64,000 bases of DNA, taken from contig JAFXCN010000020.1 in NCBI GenBank assembly GCA_017521465.1, forward strand, positions 5,797-69,796, written 5' to 3'. A program made the translations under genes and the position numbers. This document shows, piece by piece, positions 4,924 through 62,077 of this stretch (positions are counted from its first letter, which is position 1; every line of letters starts with the position of its first letter). The DNA comes from Clostridia bacterium (GTDB taxonomy: Bacteria > Bacillota > Clostridia > TANB77 > UBA1234). The notes under the pieces are model-generated. The model had not been told where the DNA came from. It saw only the letters and a program-made list of their open reading frames with translations, and searched no databases.

Positions 4924-5170
4924 ACGTCCGTCCAGTGAACACTTTGTGTCGGACAGAAAAATTCAGTCAGCGCACACTTTGTGTCGGACAGAAAAATTCA
5001 GTCAGTGAACATTTGTGTCGGACAGAAAAATTCAGCCAGCGCACACTTTGCGTCGGACAGAAAAATTCAGCCAGCGCACACTTTGCGTCGGACAGAAAAA
5101 TTCAGCCAGCGCACACTTTGCGTCGGACAGAAAAATTCAGTCAGTGAACATTTGTGTCGGACAGAAACTG
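4924..5170. repeat. tandem array of about 7 copies of a 34-35 bp unit (core GTCGGACAGAAAAATTCAG..CACACTTTG)
   Basis: Measured period is 35 bp (e.g. GCACAC at 5041, 5076, 5111). Two unit variants are present (CAGCGCACACTTTG and CAGTGAACATTTG). There are no unique spacers. Confidence 0.9.
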
Positions 5171-5298
5171 ATTAAAAGAATAAAGAATAGTGAATAAATA
5201 AAAATTTATTCCTCAATATTTAGTCATTATTCTTTAAATTGTGCATAGCACAATTTATTTTGCACATACTAATTTAAAAATAATTTAGGAGGTAGAGT

Positions 5299-37071: not shown

Positions 37072-37419
37072 TTATTTCCAAACATTATATACCGTTTTAC
37101 CATCTTTGTTTTTTATTAAGTTGTAAACACCATCAAGTGTGTTTACATTAATAGAATTTTCATCATTAAAAATTTCAATTGTATGATTTTGATTTAATCC
37201 AAATGGATTTTGACCATCTGGGAAATATGATTTTGTTTCAACAATAATTTTATCATCATAAATATAATAAGTTTTGTCAGGACCATCTACATGTGACATA
37301 TTGTTTGTTAATATTAAATTATAATCTTCTGGTATGGTATAAGTTAATTTCCAAATTATAAAACTTAATATTATAAGTAGTACTATAACAGATATTGTTA
37401 TTATTATTTTCTTTTTCAT
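37072..37419 (-). CDS. hypothetical membrane-anchored protein
   Basis: N-terminal TM followed by a 90-aa beta-rich domain. Confidence 0.4.
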   Translation of the reverse strand: MKKKIIITISVIVLLIILSFIIWKLTYTIPEDYNLILTNNMSHVDGPDKTYYIYDDKIIVETKSYFPDGQNPFGLNQNHTIEIFNDENSINVNTLDGVYNLIKNKDGKTVYNVWK

Positions 37420-37453
37420 ATATTATGTAACCTTTCTGAAATTAAAATATTAT

Positions 37454-37792
37454 TTATAAATCCGTATTTTTATTGTTATTTTTTTTACTTTTAATATATA
37501 TTATTATTTTTGCACAAATAGTTATAAGTAGCACGATTACAGAAAGTATTGCACTACCGAAGCTGAATAAAACTTCACCCAAATATGATAATCCAGGCAT
37601 AAAGCCATAGCCAGGCAAGTTCTCATAATATTGCCATAATGTTATAGAAATTATAATAGAAAAAGTTTCTAATAAAAATACTTTTACCCAGCTTTTCGTT
37701 TCTTTCTTTTTTATAGCTTTTACTAATAAAACTATTTGTCCTATAAATATTACTAAATATAATATTAATACAAGTAAAGTTTCAATAGACAT
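37454..37792 (-). CDS. hypothetical 3-TM membrane protein
   Basis: Hydrophobic segments; no motif recognised. Confidence 0.35.
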   Translation of the reverse strand: MSIETLLVLILYLVIFIGQIVLLVKAIKKKETKSWVKVFLLETFSIIISITLWQYYENLPGYGFMPGLSYLGEVLFSFGSAILSVIVLLITICAKIIIYIKSKKNNNKNTDL

Positions 37793-37894
37793 TTTCTCTC
37801 CTCCGATAATTTTGAATTCATTACTCTATAAATAGTATACAATAAAATTATTTTCTCAACAATAAAAAAGACCGCAAAATGCGGTCGATTTATA

Positions 37895-38578
37895 TTAATC
37901 ACTACTTGACTTGAGTCTAAGTACATGCAAGAAAATATTAAGAAAGTCCAGATAAATTTCGAGTGCATAAAAGATTGCACATACATTTTCATTTTCGTTG
38001 AGCTTATAAGAGTTAGAATGATTCTTAATCTTATAAATATCGTATGCAGTAACGGCAACAAAAATTAGGATTGCAACTGCAGATACGACAAAGGAATAAA
38101 GACTATTATTTACGAAAATATCAACTATCAATGCAATAAGCAAGCCAATCAGAAGAATGGTCAAAATGCTACCCCAGGAGGAAAGATCCTTTTTGGTAAC
38201 AAAACCGTAAATTGCTGCAACAGCAAAGACTCCAGCTGCGATAAAGAATGCAGAATAAATATCAGGCAGTTCGTAAGCGCGGAAAATTATCGAAAGAACT
38301 ATACCTTCAAGTGCTGTATAGGTTATAAAGTAAAAATATGCAACGGGAGATGTAATACGACTAATAGTAAAACAAATAATGAATGTATATACAACAAGTC
38401 CAATGTTAAGTCCTATAAGCAAACCATTTGAAAGTACTGCGCCAGAATTAGCAATGCTATATGCAGTAATGCCAGAAATCAAAAGGCCCACAAACATCCA
38501 AAGAAATACTTTAGTAAACAATGAGCTAGATTCCGATTCATGTCGGACTTGATGGCTGTAAGGGCGGTAGTTTGTCAT
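37895..38578 (-). CDS. Bax-inhibitor-1/YccA-family membrane protein
   Basis: 7-TM protein. GC-rich hairpin terminator GACCGCATTTTGCGGTC at 37871-37895. Confidence 0.75.
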   Translation of the reverse strand: MTNYRPYSHQVRHESESSSLFTKVFLWMFVGLLISGITAYSIANSGAVLSNGLLIGLNIGLVVYTFIICFTISRITSPVAYFYFITYTALEGIVLSIIFRAYELPDIYSAFFIAAGVFAVAAIYGFVTKKDLSSWGSILTILLIGLLIALIVDIFVNNSLYSFVVSAVAILIFVAVTAYDIYKIKNHSNSYKLNENENVCAIFYALEIYLDFLNIFLHVLRLKSSSD

Positions 38579-38744
38579 CTTTGCTCCTCCTTTTTTGTTT
38601 CGTGTTCAACTTTAATTATGTCAAGTGAAATCTAAGGGCCATTCAATAGAATCATCCTTCTTTCTATTTAAATTTCGATTGAATTATATCAAATATCATG
38701 TTTTATGTCAAATTATAGAACTTATCTCCGAGCAAAAATGTCCG

Positions 38745-38860
38745 CTGGCAGGATTTTTTCGTCGGACACAAAACACATGATTTTGGACAATTTATGTCCG
38801 ACGTAAAGTATTCGCTGGGCGGACGTTTGTGTCCGACGAAAAGTGCTTGCCTCGTTTTGT
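38745..38860. repeat. GTCGGACA-family repeat copies in mixed orientation forming a 19-bp inverted repeat
   Basis: TTTTTCGTCGGACACAAAA (38766-38784) and TTTGTGTCCGACGAAAAGT (38836-38854) are inverted. Internal copy ATGTCCGACGTAAAGTATTCGCTGGGCGG. Confidence 0.8.
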
Positions 38861-38893
38861 GCAAAATGTTATCATTATTGTATGGAGGTTTCT

Positions 38894-39913
38894 ATGATTA
38901 GTTATGATGATTTGCCAGAGATTTTAGTTAATTATATGAATTATAATGCTAACTTGAATAGGTCTAAAAATTCAATTAATGAGTATCGTTATGATCTTAC
39001 TAGATTTCTGAAGTATATTAAAGTTTTGAAATTAAAAATAAAGACGAATTCTTTGGATGAGGTTGATATTAATGATGTTGACGAGAAGCTTTTGAATAAA
39101 GTTACTTTGAATGATTTGTATGCGTACATGACTTATTTGCGTGATGAATGTGGTAATTCTGCTACTTCTCGTGCTCGTAAGGTTGCTAGCATTAAAGGTT
39201 TTTTTAGATATTTGCATGTTAAGGCTAAACTTATTGATGATAATCCAGCTAAAGAATTAGAAAGTCCTAAAGTTGGTAAACGTTTGCCGAAGTATTTATC
39301 GCTTACAGAAAGTCAAGAATTGCTTGATAAAGCCAAGTCTGGTGATATTCATATTAGAAGTAAACGCGGAAAATCAGAACAAGATCTTAGTGAGAATCAA
39401 AAGAAGTTATCGGCTCGTGATTTTGCTATGATTACTTTATTTTTAAATTGTGGCATGCGTCTTTCAGAACTTGTTGGAATTAATTTAGAACATATTAAAT
39501 TTGATGAATGCAATTTGACTGTTATAGGAAAAGGAAATAAAGAAAGAACAGTCTACTTAAATAAAGCTTGTATAAATGCTCTTAATGAATATTTAAAAGT
39601 TAGACCTGATATTGATGGCAAAGATAAAAACGCTCTTTTCTTGAGTGAAAGAAAAAAACGTATAAGCAATAGAATGGTTCAAACTACTATTTCGGAATAT
39701 CTTAAAGCGGTTGGCTTAAGTGGTTATTCAACACATAAATTAAGACATACTGCGGCAACGCTTATGTATCAAAATGGTGTTGATGTAAGAGCGCTTCAAG
39801 AAATATTAGGACATGAAAGTATTGGTACAACTGAAATATATACACATGTAGATAATTATCAAATAAGACAAGCGATAGAAAACAATCCGCTTGCTGATTA
39901 TAAAGCAAAATAA
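38894..39913 (+). CDS. tyrosine recombinase, XerD/XerC-like
   Basis: C-terminal catalytic motifs HKLRHTAAT...LGHESIGTTEIYTH. ATG 38894 behind GGAGG. Hairpin terminator 39914-39942. Confidence 0.85.
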   Translation: MISYDDLPEILVNYMNYNANLNRSKNSINEYRYDLTRFLKYIKVLKLKIKTNSLDEVDINDVDEKLLNKVTLNDLYAYMTYLRDECGNSATSRARKVASIKGFFRYLHVKAKLIDDNPAKELESPKVGKRLPKYLSLTESQELLDKAKSGDIHIRSKRGKSEQDLSENQKKLSARDFAMITLFLNCGMRLSELVGINLEHIKFDECNLTVIGKGNKERTVYLNKACINALNEYLKVRPDIDGKDKNALFLSERKKRISNRMVQTTISEYLKAVGLSGYSTHKLRHTAATLMYQNGVDVRALQEILGHESIGTTEIYTHVDNYQIRQAIENNPLADYKAK

Positions 39914-39973: not shown

Positions 39974-40246
39974 TTATACTGTAGGAATTAGTAGCTCCTG
40001 TCCTATGTAAATATCTGAATTGTTTAAATTATTTATTTTCTTTATTTCAAAAATATTTTCATTTATATTTCCATCAAGCGATTTTGCAATGCTCCAAAGT
40101 GTATCTCCATTAGAAACTATAACTTTTTCATATGTTGGTTCTTGATATGAAAAAACTCCTCCGAAAATACAATTAAATATAGAAAACATTAATATAAATA
40201 TTATTGACATTGATATTATAAATCTTGGCATACTCTTTATTCTCAT
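39974..40246 (-). CDS. LysM-domain membrane protein
   Basis: Signal-anchor plus LysM motif VSNGDTLWSIAKSL...IYIGQELLIP. Confidence 0.6.
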   Translation of the reverse strand: MRIKSMPRFIISMSIIFILMFSIFNCIFGGVFSYQEPTYEKVIVSNGDTLWSIAKSLDGNINENIFEIKKINNLNNSDIYIGQELLIPTV

Positions 40247-41654: not shown

Positions 41655-41971
41655 ATCCTAAATCCTCCCTGTTAATTAGTTTTAATTCGAGGAACATTCT
41701 ACCACAAATGACATAAAATATCAACAAAAAGACAAACAAAAATGTTAAGATTTAATTTGCAATAAGAAAAATGAAAATCTAAAAATCAAAGATTTTTGAT
41801 TTTCATATGTCGAGCTCCGCTCGACTTTAATATGAAGTTATTCTTGTATAATAGGAAAGAATATAAGTATAATTTTGGCTTGTAACGCTTGTTACACACA
41901 AGCTACAATCAAAAATTGTCGATAACTTTCCTATTATATAAAAAAGAGCAGATTGCTCTGCTCTAATTATC

Positions 41972-42772
41972 TTACTTTCCTCTACAGCCATTAACCCTGA
42001 GCTGGTAGTATATTGCATTCTTGGAAACTCCAAAGTATCGTGCCAGTTCTGTAACATTCCGCTGACCATTATGCCACATATCACAAAGAGCTTTAATCTC
42101 ATTTTCACGCAAACGCTCGCCAGTCTTGGGCCAGTCTTCTTTACTGGACATTTTGGATTGAGAAATCGGTTCGGCACTAGGCCGAGAAGTATTGCCATCT
42201 GTGGTAACAGTAGCCATTTGCTTCATGGATGCACGCTTCTGCTTCTTCTCTTCAGATGAACTGCACTCGGGAATTTTAGATGCCCAACGGCATACAGTTG
42301 CAATACTGACTTCAAATTCAGTAGCAATGTCAGCAATAGGCAGACAGTCGTTCCACATCTGTACGAACCGTTCCAGCTTGCCGGCAAGCTTGTCAGGAAT
42401 AAGCTGTTTAGCACCGATGCGCTTGAACGCTTTCCTCCTGCCATATCCATTCTTATAAGCATAGTTATATACGGAATTCTTCGTGACACCAAGTTGATCG
42501 GCCATCGTCTCGGCAGAGACACCCTCATTCCAGAGCTTCTCGAACAGCTCTTTGTCGATGCGCTTCCTGGTGGACTTTTTGGGCGCTTCAGAAGCCGCTT
42601 CTTCACGAATTTCAACTACCGTATTATCCTTTTTAGAAACATTCACATTAGGTTCAGCAGTGGTAGCATCATCACGATACACCCTGAAAACTACTTCGGT
42701 CGGGCTTGCTTGGATGAAATCAACCTTGATGCCTTCTTCGGCAACAAACCGGAAAGAGAACTCTTTCATTTT
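41972..42772 (-). CDS. GC-rich foreign gene: protein with three helix-turn-helix-like repeats
   Basis: Coding GC about 50% against a 28-30% background. Three copies of a pattern like LW(N/H)xG..V..(I/M)A..(F/L)GV(T/S)KN(S/A)(V/I)Y. Own terminator AGAGCAGAGCAATCTGCTCT followed by T7 at 41944-41968 (minus). Confidence 0.5.
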   Translation of the reverse strand, partial: KMKEFSFRFVAEEGIKVDFIQASPTEVVFRVYRDDATTAEPNVNVSKKDNTVVEIREEAASEAPKKSTRKRIDKELFEKLWNEGVSAETMADQLGVTKNSVYNYAYKNGYGRRKAFKRIGAKQLIPDKLAGKLERFVQMWNDCLPIADIATEFEVSIATVCRWASKIPECSSSEEKKQKRASMKQMATVTTDGNTSRPSAEPISQSKMSSKEDWPKTGERLRENEIKALCDMWHNGQRNVTELARYFGVSKNAIYYQLRVNGCRGK

Positions 42773-45700: not shown

Positions 45701-45707
45701 TTATAAA

Positions 45708-46046
45708 AAGAGCAAATCTATAAGCCGGGTTCTGTATTTGATAATCATTTATCTAGGATATACATTGCTGTATACCTCAAGCCGCCTTCTTCAAGAAGTA
45801 ATAGCGGGCAACTTAAACTTCTTCCATGGCGTTGCTCCGAGTGGGGTTTACATAGCCAATATGTCTCCATATTGCTGGTAGGCTCTTACCCTGCCTTTCC
45901 ATCCTTACCTTATTACTAAGGCGGTATATTTCTGTTGCACTATCCTTAGAGTTACCTCCACCAGCCGTTAGCTGGCACCCTGCCCTGTGGAGCCCGGACT
46001 TTCCTCATATGCTATAAATAGCATCCGCGATTATCTGACTTACTCC
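45708..46046 (-). ncRNA. rnpB: RNase P RNA
   Basis: Minus strand contains GAGGAAAGTCCGGGCTCCACAGGGCAGGGTGCCAGCTAACGGCTGG and the 3' P4 strand ACAGAACCCGGCTTA. Promoter TTGACT-17-TATAAT at about 46060-46090 (minus). Ends are approximate. Confidence 0.85.
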
Positions 46047-58010: not shown

Positions 58011-58054
58011 CCTTTTTTTGAGAAAAGTCAAGGTTATGTCCGTATAAAAATATA

Positions 58055-58175
58055 CTCTGTGTGAACTTTTGTGTCCGACGTAAAGTGTACGCTGGGTGAA
58101 TTTTTCTGTCGGACATAAATCTTTCGCTAGGAATCATTTTTCAACGGACACAAAAAAGTCGGCATATGGCCGACT
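58055..58175. repeat. GTCGGACA-family repeat copies (fourth locus)
   Basis: TTTTGTGTCCGACGTAAAGTGTACGCTGGGTGAATTTTTCTGTCGGACATAAA. Near-identical to the locus-3 internal copy and to the reverse complement of the array-1 unit. Confidence 0.8.
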
Positions 58176-61959: not shown

Positions 61960-62077
61960 TTCTATATTCCCTCCCTTTATGCCGTCTAATTCTTATATAT
62001 AAACGATTCTTGTGAATCAACTTTAGTCGGACATGTAAAATTATATACTGGTTTTTCTATTTTGTCAAGTTTATTTG

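What the first reader, a model, noticed from the sequence alone, without database searches (positions are those of the whole stretch)
38745..38860. Inverted GTCGGACA-family copies forming a 19-bp IR immediately upstream of the XerD-like recombinase
TTTTTCGTCGGACACAAAA and TTTGTGTCCGACGAAAAGT flank about 50 bp that contains a third copy (ATGTCCGACGTAAAGTATTCGCTGGGCGG). The structure ends 34 bp before the recombinase start codon. An inverted pair of family repeats next to a tyrosine recombinase could be a recombination or inversion site (dif-like or invertible-promoter-like). It could also be the end of the small islet 36.3-40.3 kb.
Basis: partly seen in the sequence, partly recalled or inferred. 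Interest (0 to 1): 0.55.

Follow-up and report, generated by a model that had tools for sequence, protein, structure and literature searches.

The report
Repeat-family inverted pair, not Xer site
The inverted repeat upstream of the recombinase gene is real, but it is only neighbouring copies of a lineage-specific 35-bp intergenic repeat lying in opposite directions; the recombinase's conserved partner is a different 28-bp dif-like palindrome 2.4 kb away.

Summary
TTTTCGTCGGACACAAA (38756-38772) and TTTGTGTCCGACGAAAA (38826-38842) form a perfect 17-bp inverted repeat, with a third copy between them. The recombination or inversion reading does not hold. The arms are units of a ~35-bp GTCGGACA repeat family: 18 cores in the window against 0.2 expected, at five intergenic sites, mostly in tandem arrays.

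- The family is absent from the recombinase loci of 80 related species.
- It is present in sister taxa, with a different copy number and arrangement at the same spot: three minus units in one, five direct units and no inverted pair in another.
- Eight assemblies show no inverted version.

The recombinase is a conserved, catalytically complete Xer-like enzyme in fixed synteny with LysM and ackA, sitting at the GC-skew switch. Its conserved partner is a 28-bp dif-like palindrome, ATTGCACAAAA-TAATAG-TTTTGTGCGAA, at 36475-36502. This palindrome occurs upstream of the gene in about 54 of 80 species, its arms co-vary symmetrically, and it lies at the skew switch in 37 of 42 loci. A lone copy of its right arm (38855-38865) lies inside the predicted xer promoter, just beside the repeat cluster.

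Verdict: the inverted repeat is ordinary. The dif/xer module is the more interesting by-product.

The parts
38737..38753 (-). Degenerate, internally deleted unit of the GTCGGACA family (AAAATGTCCG^CTGGCAGGA)
   Evidence: Read from the sequence by comparison with full minus-orientation units such as TTTATGTCCGACGTAAAGTATTCGCTGGGCGG. This is an inference.
38747..38772 (+). Left arm of the inverted repeat: unit A of the family in plus orientation, core GTCGGACA at 38761-38768
38791..38825 (-). Unit B, minus orientation, core at 38795-38802; the 'third copy' between the arms
38826..38851 (-). Right arm of the inverted repeat: unit C, minus orientation, core at 38830-38837. It is truncated by 14 bp relative to the sister taxon L240.
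38847..38875 (+). Predicted xer promoter: TTGCCT, 17-nt spacer, TG-extended TATCAT. Its -35 element overlaps the outer end of the right arm.
   Evidence: a consensus scan only.
38855..38865 (+). Lone copy of the dif-like right arm (TTTTGTGCAAA) inside the promoter spacer. It is conserved next to xer in 15 species.
38683..38711 (-). Consensus promoter (TTGACA, 17 nt, TG-TATAAT) of the divergent Bax1-I-family gene, to the left of the repeat cluster
38894..39913 (+). Xer-like tyrosine recombinase, 339 aa, with a complete R-K-HxxR-H-Y catalytic set
36475..36502 (.). 28-bp dif-like site, ATTGCACAAAA TAATAG TTTTGTGCGAA (11+6+11). It is the only full site in the window and lies at the GC-skew switch.
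36503..38854 (.). Species-variable segment between the dif-like site and the xer promoter: AT-rich non-coding DNA, two small ORFs, a Bax1-I-family gene and the repeat cluster
4932..5167 (+). Tandem array of 7 family units (period 35). Copy number is 7, 6, 5 or 3 in different assemblies.
33711..33904 (+). Tandem array of 5.5 family units (period 35)
58053..58150 (.). Cluster of 2-3 family units in mixed orientation (minus, plus, then a degenerate plus unit)
62020..62040 (+). Solitary family unit

Best explanation
The inverted repeat is a by-product of a genus-restricted, non-coding, ~35-bp interspersed repeat family. The family's consensus is ..ACACTTT-NN-GTCGGACA-N-AAAA.. . It sits in intergenic DNA and grows and shrinks by whole units through slippage or unequal exchange, as VNTR-type elements do. 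Upstream of xer, one plus-oriented unit lies next to two minus-oriented units, and that juxtaposition alone makes the 17-26-bp inverted pair. It is not the recombinase's substrate.

The recombinase is a conserved housekeeping Xer-type enzyme at the replication terminus. Its cognate site is most likely the 28-bp dif-like palindrome at 36475-36502. The single dif-arm copy in the xer promoter spacer (38855-38865) is most likely a Xer-binding half-site (autoregulation) and/or the remnant of an ancestral dif that once lay directly upstream of xer.

Shown here:
- the repeat-family membership of the arms;
- the family's absence from related species;
- unit-number and arrangement changes at the same locus in sister taxa;
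- conservation, symmetric co-variation and terminus position of the 28-mer.

Inferred:
- the mechanism of repeat expansion;
- that the repeats have no role in recombination;
- that Xer binds and cuts the 28-mer;
- autoregulation through the half-site.
For: Repeat family:
- 18 cores against 0.2 expected, at five intergenic sites.
- Period-35 arrays with 91-92% internal identity. A 35-bp period cannot be coding.
- Array 1 has 7, 6, 5 or 3 units in different assemblies, with identical flanks.

The xer-upstream cluster:
- Identical in six assemblies of the same strain.
- A strain whose Xer is 99% identical has the same plus unit followed by three minus units, making the intergenic region 349 bp rather than 315 bp.
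- Sister taxon L240 has five direct minus units and no plus unit next to the same promoter.
- L237 keeps one truncated unit.
- Relatives with 88-90% Xer identity (L007, L246, L247) and all 80 species loci have no unit at all.
- Single units do not fold (z = -0.1 to -1.7).

The partner site:
- A palindrome of the form ATTGCRYAAAA-N6-TTTTRYGCAAT occurs upstream of xer in 51 of 80 loci, or 54 with a relaxed search. Chance expectation is 0.67 hits in 1.35 Mb.
- The two arms change together: GCACAAAA/TTTTGTGC, GCGTAAAA/TTTTACGC, GAACAAAA/TTTTGTTC, TAAACAAAA/TTTTGTTTA.
- GC skew is positive to the left and negative to the right in 37 of 42 loci and in the window.
- No B. subtilis-type dif was found.
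- Nine perfect copies occur in phage or mobile-element contigs, four of the 12 matching contigs carrying Xer-like genes nearby.
- Xer has a complete catalytic set, and xer-LysM-ackA synteny is conserved.
Against: - No read-level data could be examined, so low-frequency inversion cannot be excluded.
- The inner ends of the inverted-repeat arms (CACAAAA / TTTGTG) share 6-7 bp with the inner ends of the dif-like arms, and the cluster directly abuts the half-site. Some interaction with Xer is therefore not formally excluded.
- The family occupies the same xer-upstream spot in at least three related taxa. This could reflect function rather than shared descent.
- Copy-number differences between short-read assemblies may partly be collapse artefacts.
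- Whether the organism also has canonical XerC/XerD and another dif elsewhere is unknown, because only 64 kb was seen.
Confidence: 0.8

Rival explanations
1. The inverted pair is a substrate of the adjacent tyrosine recombinase: either an invertible switch for the 53-bp segment or a dif-like crossover site.
For: It lies next to a catalytically complete tyrosine recombinase. It is a perfect 17-bp inverted repeat. The inner arm ends resemble the inner ends of the dif-like arms (CACAAAA/TTTGTG; one search lists 38762 as a 7-mismatch match).
Against: - It is absent from 80 orthologous loci.
- Arm number and spacing change with unit copy number in sister taxa, and one sister has only direct repeats.
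- The orientation is the same in eight assemblies.
- The 53-bp segment contains no promoter-like site.
- The same units occur at four other sites far from any recombinase gene.
- The recombinase has a far better conserved 11+6+11 site.
- From recalled knowledge, not tested here: tyrosine-recombinase synapsis between sites only ~50 bp apart is sterically unfavourable (Cre needs about 82 bp or more).
Confidence: 0.04
2. The GTCGGACA units are operator arrays for a sequence-specific DNA-binding protein, for example the lineage-restricted multi-HTH protein encoded at 41972-42769. They would modulate neighbouring promoters, including the divergent Bax1-I and xer promoters.
For: - All five sites are intergenic and upstream of at least one gene.
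- The cluster lies between two divergent promoters and overlaps the xer -35 element.
- The GC-rich 8-bp core is invariant while the rest of the unit drifts.
- A multi-HTH protein with weak Cbp1-like similarity has only 15 homologues in 5.8 billion clusters. All fetched homologue loci are syntenic with the window (pta / HTH / ackA neighbourhood), and the repeat was found in two of the four homologue sets, L240 and L237.
Against: - Promoter-like sites near the arrays are no more frequent than in shuffles, and they are not at a fixed distance.
- Unit orientation relative to the downstream gene is inconsistent.
- Arrays of 5-7 near-identical units that vary in number look like slippage products rather than tuned operators.
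- Two loci that encode the HTH protein (L234, L235) show no unit in about 10 kb each. This is weak evidence given the repeat's density.
- No binding test is possible with these tools.
Confidence: 0.12
3. The cluster is the scar or terminal repeat of a mobile element, or marks the junction of the inserted islet 36.5-38.85 kb. That would make it a MITE-like end or the att-side remnant of an element that inserted at dif.
For: - The DNA between the dif-like site and xer is unrelated from species to species, and synteny breaks exactly upstream of xer.
- In 15 species the perfect left arm sits at the distal site and the perfect right arm next to xer, as if an ancestral palindrome had been split.
- The dif-like palindrome occurs in phage or mobile-element contigs.
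- The cluster abuts the right-arm remnant.
Against: - The same units form arrays at four other sites with no sign of insertion.
- Units are not palindromic and are not bounded by target duplications.
- In L240 an extra gene lies between the Bax1-I gene and the array, so the array is not tied to one islet boundary.
- No transposase or integrase other than xer lies in the segment.
- A conserved non-coding block next to the distal site in 14 species argues that much of the interval is old.
Confidence: 0.06

Closest known systems
STAR elements of Staphylococcus aureus and MIRU/VNTR-type intergenic repeats of mycobacteria (recalled from the literature, not tested against those sequences)
   Same: A short, relatively GC-rich conserved core recurs at a fixed spacing in the intergenic DNA of an AT-rich genome. 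Arrays are dispersed at several loci. The number of units differs between strains. There is no coding capacity and no obligatory hairpin.
   Different: The sequence is unrelated. The unit length is 35 bp and the core is GTCGGACA. The family is known only from a small clade of uncultured gut or rumen Clostridia. Some clusters mix orientations, and that mixing is what creates the inverted repeat here.
REP/BIME elements of enterobacteria
   Same: Units of about 35 bp lie outside genes and can sit in alternating orientation, so that neighbouring copies form inverted pairs.
   Different: REP units are themselves imperfect palindromes and are linked to RAYT transposases. These units do not fold, and most copies are in direct tandem arrays. 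No RAYT was looked for beyond the genes near the finding.
Invertible promoter switches driven by tyrosine recombinases (fimS with FimB/FimE; the Clostridioides difficile RecV switches)
   Same: A short inverted repeat lies next to a tyrosine recombinase gene in an intergenic region.
   Different: Known switches enclose roughly 150-300 bp carrying a promoter, and both orientations are found in populations. Here the enclosed segment is 53 bp with no promoter-like site, only one orientation is seen, and the repeat is not conserved with the recombinase.
Single-recombinase Xer/dif modules: XerS/difSL (streptococci and lactococci), XerH/difH (Helicobacter, Campylobacter), XerA/dif (archaea), XerL/dif (Legionellales) (PMC1914069, PMC3325230, PMC5357621, PMC9765430)
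   Same: This comparison concerns the 28-mer, not the inverted repeat. A Xer-family recombinase is genetically linked to a ~28-bp site made of two inverted arms and a 6-bp centre, at the replication terminus. In many species the site lies 40-130 bp upstream of the gene, as difSL and difH lie near their xer genes. Its arms can be perfect inverted repeats, as reported for XerL dif. Mobile-element contigs carry look-alike sites, as with IMEX elements.
   Different: The protein fails the NCBIfam equivalog cut-offs for XerC, XerD, XerS and XerA. The site sequence is different. In the window's clade the site has moved 0.5-7 kb away from xer, with a lone arm left in the xer promoter. The use of a single recombinase, FtsK dependence and dimer-resolution activity are all untested.

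Membership tests
Invertible DNA switch (tyrosine-recombinase type) | Both orientations of the segment between the inverted repeats exist in the population | tested here: inconclusive
   Six same-strain assemblies and two assemblies of a strain with 99% identical Xer all show one orientation. Raw reads were not available.
Invertible DNA switch (tyrosine-recombinase type) | The invertible segment carries a promoter or other orientation-dependent signal | tested here: not met
   The segment between the arms is 53 bp and consists of another repeat unit. No promoter-like site lies within 38773-38825.
Invertible DNA switch (tyrosine-recombinase type) | The inverted repeats are conserved together with the recombinase in relatives | tested here: not met
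   There are no GTCGGACA units in the 80 orthologous loci. Sister taxon L240 has five direct units and no inverted pair.
dif / Xer core site (claim tested for the GTCGGACA inverted repeat) | Two ~11-bp inverted recombinase-binding arms separated by a 6-11-bp central region | tested here: not met
   The arms are separated by 53 bp, and this spacing changes with unit number in a sister strain.
dif / Xer core site (claim tested for the 28-mer at 36475-36502) | 11+6+11 architecture, conserved across species that carry the recombinase | tested here: met
   The site is found in 51-54 of 80 loci against 0.67 expected by chance. Its arms co-vary symmetrically.
dif / Xer core site (claim tested for the 28-mer at 36475-36502) | Located at the replication terminus (the GC-skew switch) | tested here: met
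   In the window, cumulative G-C has a local maximum at 36.5 kb and its overall maximum at 40.0 kb. Skew is positive left and negative right of the site in 37 of 42 loci.
dif / Xer core site (claim tested for the 28-mer at 36475-36502) | One copy per chromosome; recombination by Xer, dependent on FtsK; resolves chromosome dimers | not testable with these tools
   There is one full site in the 64-kb window. No whole genome and no experiment were available.
XerC / XerD / XerS / XerA equivalogs (NCBIfam) | Score above the curated equivalog cut-off | tested here: not met
   XerC 226 against 335; XerD 214 against 330; XerA 206 against 220; XerS 164 against 267. The protein is a Xer-type recombinase by Pfam domains and by its catalytic residues R-K-HxxR-H-Y, but it belongs to none of the named equivalogs.
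VNTR-like interspersed intergenic repeats (STAR / MIRU kind) | Non-coding units in head-to-tail arrays at several intergenic loci, sharing a conserved core | tested here: met
   Five intergenic sites, period 35, an invariant 8-bp core, 91-92% identity within arrays and about 74% between array consensuses.
VNTR-like interspersed intergenic repeats (STAR / MIRU kind) | Unit number varies between strains at a given locus | tested here: met
   Array 1 has 7, 6, 5 or 3 units. The xer-upstream cluster has 2, 3 or 5 minus units. Caveat: short-read assemblies can collapse repeats.
REP/BIME | Each unit is an imperfect palindrome able to form a hairpin | tested here: not met
   Folding z-scores of single units range from -0.1 to -1.7, and no shared stem appears.
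CRISPR array | Repeats separated by unique spacers of similar length | tested here: not met
   The period is 35 bp, units are contiguous, and there are no unique spacers.

The most novel reading that the evidence does not exclude
A large clade of uncultured gut and rumen Clostridia may resolve chromosome dimers with one Xer-type recombinase acting on a (near-)perfectly palindromic 28-bp dif that ancestrally lay in the recombinase's own promoter. In the window's lineage the palindrome appears split. The perfect left arm, paired with a decayed right arm, sits 0.5-7 kb away. The perfect right arm remains in the xer promoter. The DNA between them differs in every species, and look-alike sites are carried by phage and mobile-element contigs. 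On this reading the dif-xer interval is a hot spot for elements that exploit Xer, and the segment 36.5-38.85 kb, including the GTCGGACA cluster at its xer-proximal edge, is such an acquired insert.
Probability: 0.4. Interest if true: 0.6.

Novelty: new member of a known kind. Interest (0 to 1): 0.33.

Why it matters
For the finding as given, the result is a caution. In AT-rich genomes, opposite-facing copies of an interspersed repeat can imitate recombinase sites. Comparison with relatives separates the two cases quickly.

The repeat family itself is a new, narrowly distributed VNTR-like element. It could serve as a strain marker for this uncultured lineage.

The by-product matters more. A conserved 28-bp dif-like palindrome is linked to a Xer-type gene at the skew switch in dozens of uncultured Clostridia species. 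This gives a concrete, testable candidate for their chromosome-dimer-resolution system and a landmark for the terminus in fragmented MAGs. It also points to a likely integration hot spot for mobile elements.

Tried and rejected
- **Canonical dif.** The best hit was 8 mismatches at 37406, with a good XerD-arm half. Equal-quality hits occur at random places in other loci, and none is conserved near xer, so this was treated as chance.
- **Metagenome scan** for CTTTNNGTCGGACANAAA. A viral scan for the repeat gave 6 singletons and nothing useful.
- **Rfam.** Gathering thresholds found only RNase P, a T-box and a tRNA. The permissive search of 36.05-38.9 kb found nothing credible.
- **RNA structure** for the conserved non-coding element near the dif-like site. 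RNAalifold predicted no pairs.
- **Promoter association of the arrays.** Promoter-like sites were no more frequent than in shuffles.
- **FtsK-orienting (KOPS-like) or Ter-like reading of the 8-mer.** Left of the terminus all 12 copies face one way, but on the right side 3 face each way. The copies are also clustered in arrays rather than spread through genes. Rejected.
- **Link between the repeats and the multi-HTH protein.** The protein is restricted to the same small clade. Only some loci that encode it show repeats within about 10 kb, so the question stays open.
- **Literature searches** by sequence word for the repeat core and the dif-like arms found nothing relevant. Searches for a described Clostridia single-Xer system found none.

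Full report
**1. The observation**

TTTTCGTCGGACACAAA (38756-38772) and TTTGTGTCCGACGAAAA (38826-38842) are perfectly complementary over 17 bp. Over 26 bp (38747-38772 / 38826-38851) they are 85% complementary, with 53 bp between the arms. A third copy, TTTATGTCCGACGTAAAGT (38791-38809), lies between them in the orientation of the right arm and 35 bp from it.

The recombinase ORF starts at the ATG at 38894, which is preceded by GGAGG. The finding's end coordinate is therefore 34 bp upstream of the start codon. The strand folds better than shuffled controls (z = -3.9), which is simply what an inverted repeat does.

**2. The arms are units of a repeat family**

The core GTCGGACA occurs 18 times in the window against 0.20 expected; none of 100 shuffles reached that number. 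The copies lie at five places:

| Site | Content |
|---|---|
| 4932-5167 | tandem array of 7 units |
| 33711-33904 | tandem array of 5.5 units |
| 38747-38851 | the three copies of the finding (plus, minus, minus) |
| 58053-58150 | mixed-orientation cluster |
| 62026 | single unit |

- The period is 34-35 bp, so the arrays cannot be coding.
- The conserved part of the unit reads ..ACACTTT-NN-GTCGGACA-N-AAAA...
- Arrays are 91-92% identical internally. The two array consensuses are about 74% identical to each other by my count. That pattern points to local expansion.
- All five sites are intergenic.
- Single units have no significant hairpin, so they are not REP-like.
- There are no unique spacers, so the arrays are not CRISPR.
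- Rfam has nothing there.

**3. The repeats are not tied to the recombinase**

The exact recombinase protein is found on nine metagenomic contigs. In the five of the six fetched loci that include the upstream region (L005 does not), the 315-bp upstream region is 100% identical to the window and in the same orientation.

A scan of one genome per species returned 245 relatives of the recombinase, of which 80 loci were kept. All are uncultured Clostridia from gut or rumen. None of the close ones contains a GTCGGACA unit. The few hits in GC-richer, distant loci are isolated singletons. This includes the relatives with 88-90% identical Xer (L007, L246, L247).

The family does exist in the immediate sister taxa. 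These were reached through a neighbouring gene and through the closest Xer homologues:

- **L243/L244 (Xer 99% identical).** The same plus unit and spacer are followed by three minus units instead of two, giving a 349-bp intergenic region rather than 315 bp.
- **L240.** Five direct minus units abut the same promoter. There is no plus unit, and hence no inverted repeat.
- **L237.** A single truncated unit remains.

Array 1 likewise has 7, 6, 5 or 3 units in different assemblies, with identical flanks. Short-read collapse could contribute to that spread.

The number of arms, their spacing and even the existence of an inverted pair therefore change with unit copy number among close relatives. No assembly shows the enclosed segment flipped. 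This is the behaviour of a VNTR-like repeat, not of a fixed recombination site.

**4. What the recombinase is**

- It is a 339-aa protein with Phage_integrase and SAM-like N-terminal domains.
- It is closest to XerC, XerD and XerA profiles but below every equivalog cut-off.
- Its best structural relatives by sequence are XerD and XerA.
- Its alignment to E. coli XerD shows the Arg, Lys, His-x-x-Arg, His and Tyr catalytic residues.
- Source annotations call its relatives XerC or XerD.
- On its right, the LysM (YneA-like) gene and ackA are syntenic in about 20 species. On its left nothing is conserved.
- The cumulative G-C curve of the window rises until 36.5 kb, wobbles, peaks at 39,994 and then falls. 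Genes switch from the plus strand to the minus strand at the same place.

In Firmicutes the leading strand is G-rich, which is established knowledge. This pattern is therefore the polarity of a replication terminus.

**5. The conserved partner site**

While reading the upstream regions of relatives, I saw the word TTTTGTGCAAT recurring just upstream of the gene. More distant relatives have the full palindrome AATTGCACAAAAT-N4-ATTTTGTGCAATT at that position.

A search for TTGCACAAAA-N6-TTTTGTGCAA allowing up to 4 mismatches gave these results:

- It finds a site upstream of the gene in 51 of 80 loci, against 0.67 hits expected in all 1.35 Mb. A relaxed palindrome search adds three more loci.
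- Sites lie from 40 bp to 8.6 kb upstream.
- The architecture is 11+6+11 = 28 bp, the classical dif format.
- The two arms change together between clades: GCACAAAA/TTTTGTGC, GCGTAAAA/TTTTACGC, GAACAAAA/TTTTGTTC, TAAACAAAA/TTTTGTTTA, GCGCAAAA/TTTTGCGC. That is what one protein binding both arms would produce.
- GC skew is positive to the left of the site and negative to the right of xer in 37 of 42 loci with enough flank, and never the reverse.
- No B. subtilis-type dif is present in the window or in the loci.
- The same palindrome occurs in 12 IMG/VR contigs. Nine are perfect beyond what the search pattern required, and four of the 12 contigs carry Xer-like genes nearby. Others lie near terminase or small FtsK-like genes.

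The window has exactly one full site, ATTGCACAAAA TAATAG TTTTGTGCGAA, at 36475-36502. It lies in AT-rich non-coding DNA 2.4 kb upstream of xer, at the first skew maximum.

I conclude that this 28-mer, and not the GTCGGACA repeat, is the recombinase's cognate site and most likely the chromosomal dif. Binding, cleavage, FtsK dependence and the absence of a second Xer are untested.

**6. What lies right beside the inverted repeat**

Immediately right of the right arm is TTTTGTGCAAA (38855-38865), a lone copy of the dif right arm. It sits in the 17-bp spacer of the predicted xer promoter, TTGCCT-17-TGTTATCAT (38847-38875).

In 15 species that have both a distal site and this proximal arm, the mean mismatches to the arm consensus are:

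| Position | Mean mismatches |
|---|---|
| Distal left arm | 0.13 |
| Distal right arm | 2.4 |
| Proximal right arm | 0.13 |
| Position where a proximal left arm would be | 8.4 (random) |

The DNA between the two sites is unrelated from species to species. The exception is a conserved non-coding block next to the distal site, which ends in a ~70-nt element (window 36925-36990) found in 14 species.

Two readings fit, and they are not exclusive. The lone arm may be a Xer-binding half-site kept for autoregulation. Its perfect conservation within otherwise unalignable DNA argues for selection. Alternatively, an ancestral palindrome in the xer promoter was split by insertion, as happens with elements that integrate at dif.

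In the window's own genus the arm seems to be relaxing. It reads TTTTGTGCAAAA, TTTTGCGCAAAA or TTTTGGGCAAAA in different taxa, and it is deleted in L237 and absent in L007, L246 and L247.

The repeat cluster thus lies at the xer-proximal edge of a species-variable segment, 36503-38854.

**7. What the repeats do**

I could not assign a function. The best-supported account is a selfish or neutral interspersed repeat that spreads rarely to new intergenic sites and then expands and contracts by whole units.

A role as a protein-binding array cannot be excluded. The 8-bp core is invariant while the rest of the unit drifts. The cluster lies between the consensus promoter of the Bax1-I-family gene (38683-38711, minus strand) and the xer promoter. 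A clade-restricted multi-HTH protein, with only 15 homologues in 5.8 billion clusters, is encoded 3 kb away.

Against that role, promoter-like sites are not enriched near the arrays, and unit orientation relative to the neighbouring genes is inconsistent.

A KOPS-like or Ter-like reading fails. To the right of the terminus the copies face both ways.

**8. Comparison with known systems**

The inverted repeat resembles BIME-type juxtapositions of REP units and, superficially, invertible switches. It fails the defining tests of both, as set out in the membership table.

The family behaves like STAR or MIRU-type VNTR repeats. That resemblance is recalled from the literature; no sequence relation exists.

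The 28-mer with xer resembles the single-recombinase modules XerS/difSL, XerH/difH, XerA and XerL (PMC1914069, PMC3325230, PMC5357621, PMC9765430). Those reviews and a prediction study of dif sites (PMC3025954) do not describe this site. Word searches for its arms found nothing relevant. The library is incomplete, so this is not proof of novelty.

**9. Verdict**

The recombination or inversion interpretation is not supported.

Interest for the finding itself is low. The dif-like module and the variable dif-xer interval are worth a separate follow-up.

Noticed in passing
window 36475-36502, and 51-54 of the loci L008-L086: A 28-bp dif-like palindrome (11+6+11) is conserved upstream of the Xer-like gene across dozens of uncultured Clostridia species. 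Its arms co-vary symmetrically, and it lies at the GC-skew switch.
   Followed up: yes
window 38855-38865; the same position in 15 related loci: A lone, perfectly conserved copy of the dif right arm lies in or next to the predicted xer promoter. It could be an autoregulatory half-site or the remnant of a split ancestral dif. It is variable or lost within the window's own genus.
   Followed up: partly
window 36925-36990; L008-L031: A conserved ~70-nt non-coding element (...ATTACCC..AAAAATCGATTCTAGGGCATCCTCGTGCGTCGTTT) always lies 370-620 bp on the xer side of the dif-like site, in 14 species. It has no Rfam match and no consensus structure. The variable DNA starts right after it.
   Followed up: partly
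L213-L224 (IMG/VR contigs): The same 28-bp palindrome occurs in 12 viral or mobile-element contigs. Nine copies are perfect. Four lie next to Xer-like recombinase genes, and others lie near terminase or small FtsK/SpoIIIE-like genes. These may be dif mimics or elements integrated at dif.
   Followed up: partly
window 41972-42769 (minus strand): A 265-aa protein has several weak HTH matches, including Cbp1-like similarity. Its gene is GC-rich (43% against about 30%). It has only 15 homologues in 5.8 billion protein clusters, all in the same small clade. Sister taxa carry a second, 458-aa multi-HTH paralogue beside it.
   Followed up: partly
window 4932-5167 versus L225-L233: The 35-bp array upstream of the YtfJ-like gene has 7, 6, 5 or 3 units in assemblies from different samples. 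Two contigs end inside the array. This is either real VNTR variation or short-read collapse.
   Followed up: partly
L007 10478-10843; L018 1-1751: Period-66 repeat arrays, probably CRISPR, occur in two related species' loci.
   Followed up: no
window 5237-5255: A perfect palindrome, AATTGTGCATAGCACAATT, lies upstream of the YtfJ-like sporulation gene. It looks operator-like.
   Followed up: no
window 37406-37433: This is the best match to B. subtilis dif (8 mismatches, with a good XerD-arm half, TTATGTAACCT), inside the variable segment. It was judged to be chance, because equal matches occur at random in other loci and it is not conserved.
   Followed up: yes
L240 7966-9017: The sister taxon's xer is called as two ORFs (161 + 189 aa). 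This is a possible frameshift or pseudogene, or an assembly error. The contig also contains a run of N.
   Followed up: no
window 41841-41859 / 41926-41944: A 19-nt inverted repeat (89% complementary, arms 66 bp apart) lies between ackA and the multi-HTH gene.
   Followed up: no
window 34494-34686 and 45705-46046: A T-box leader lies upstream of the aspartate-tRNA(Asn) ligase gene, and there is a bacterial RNase P class A RNA. Both are ordinary Rfam matches.
   Followed up: no
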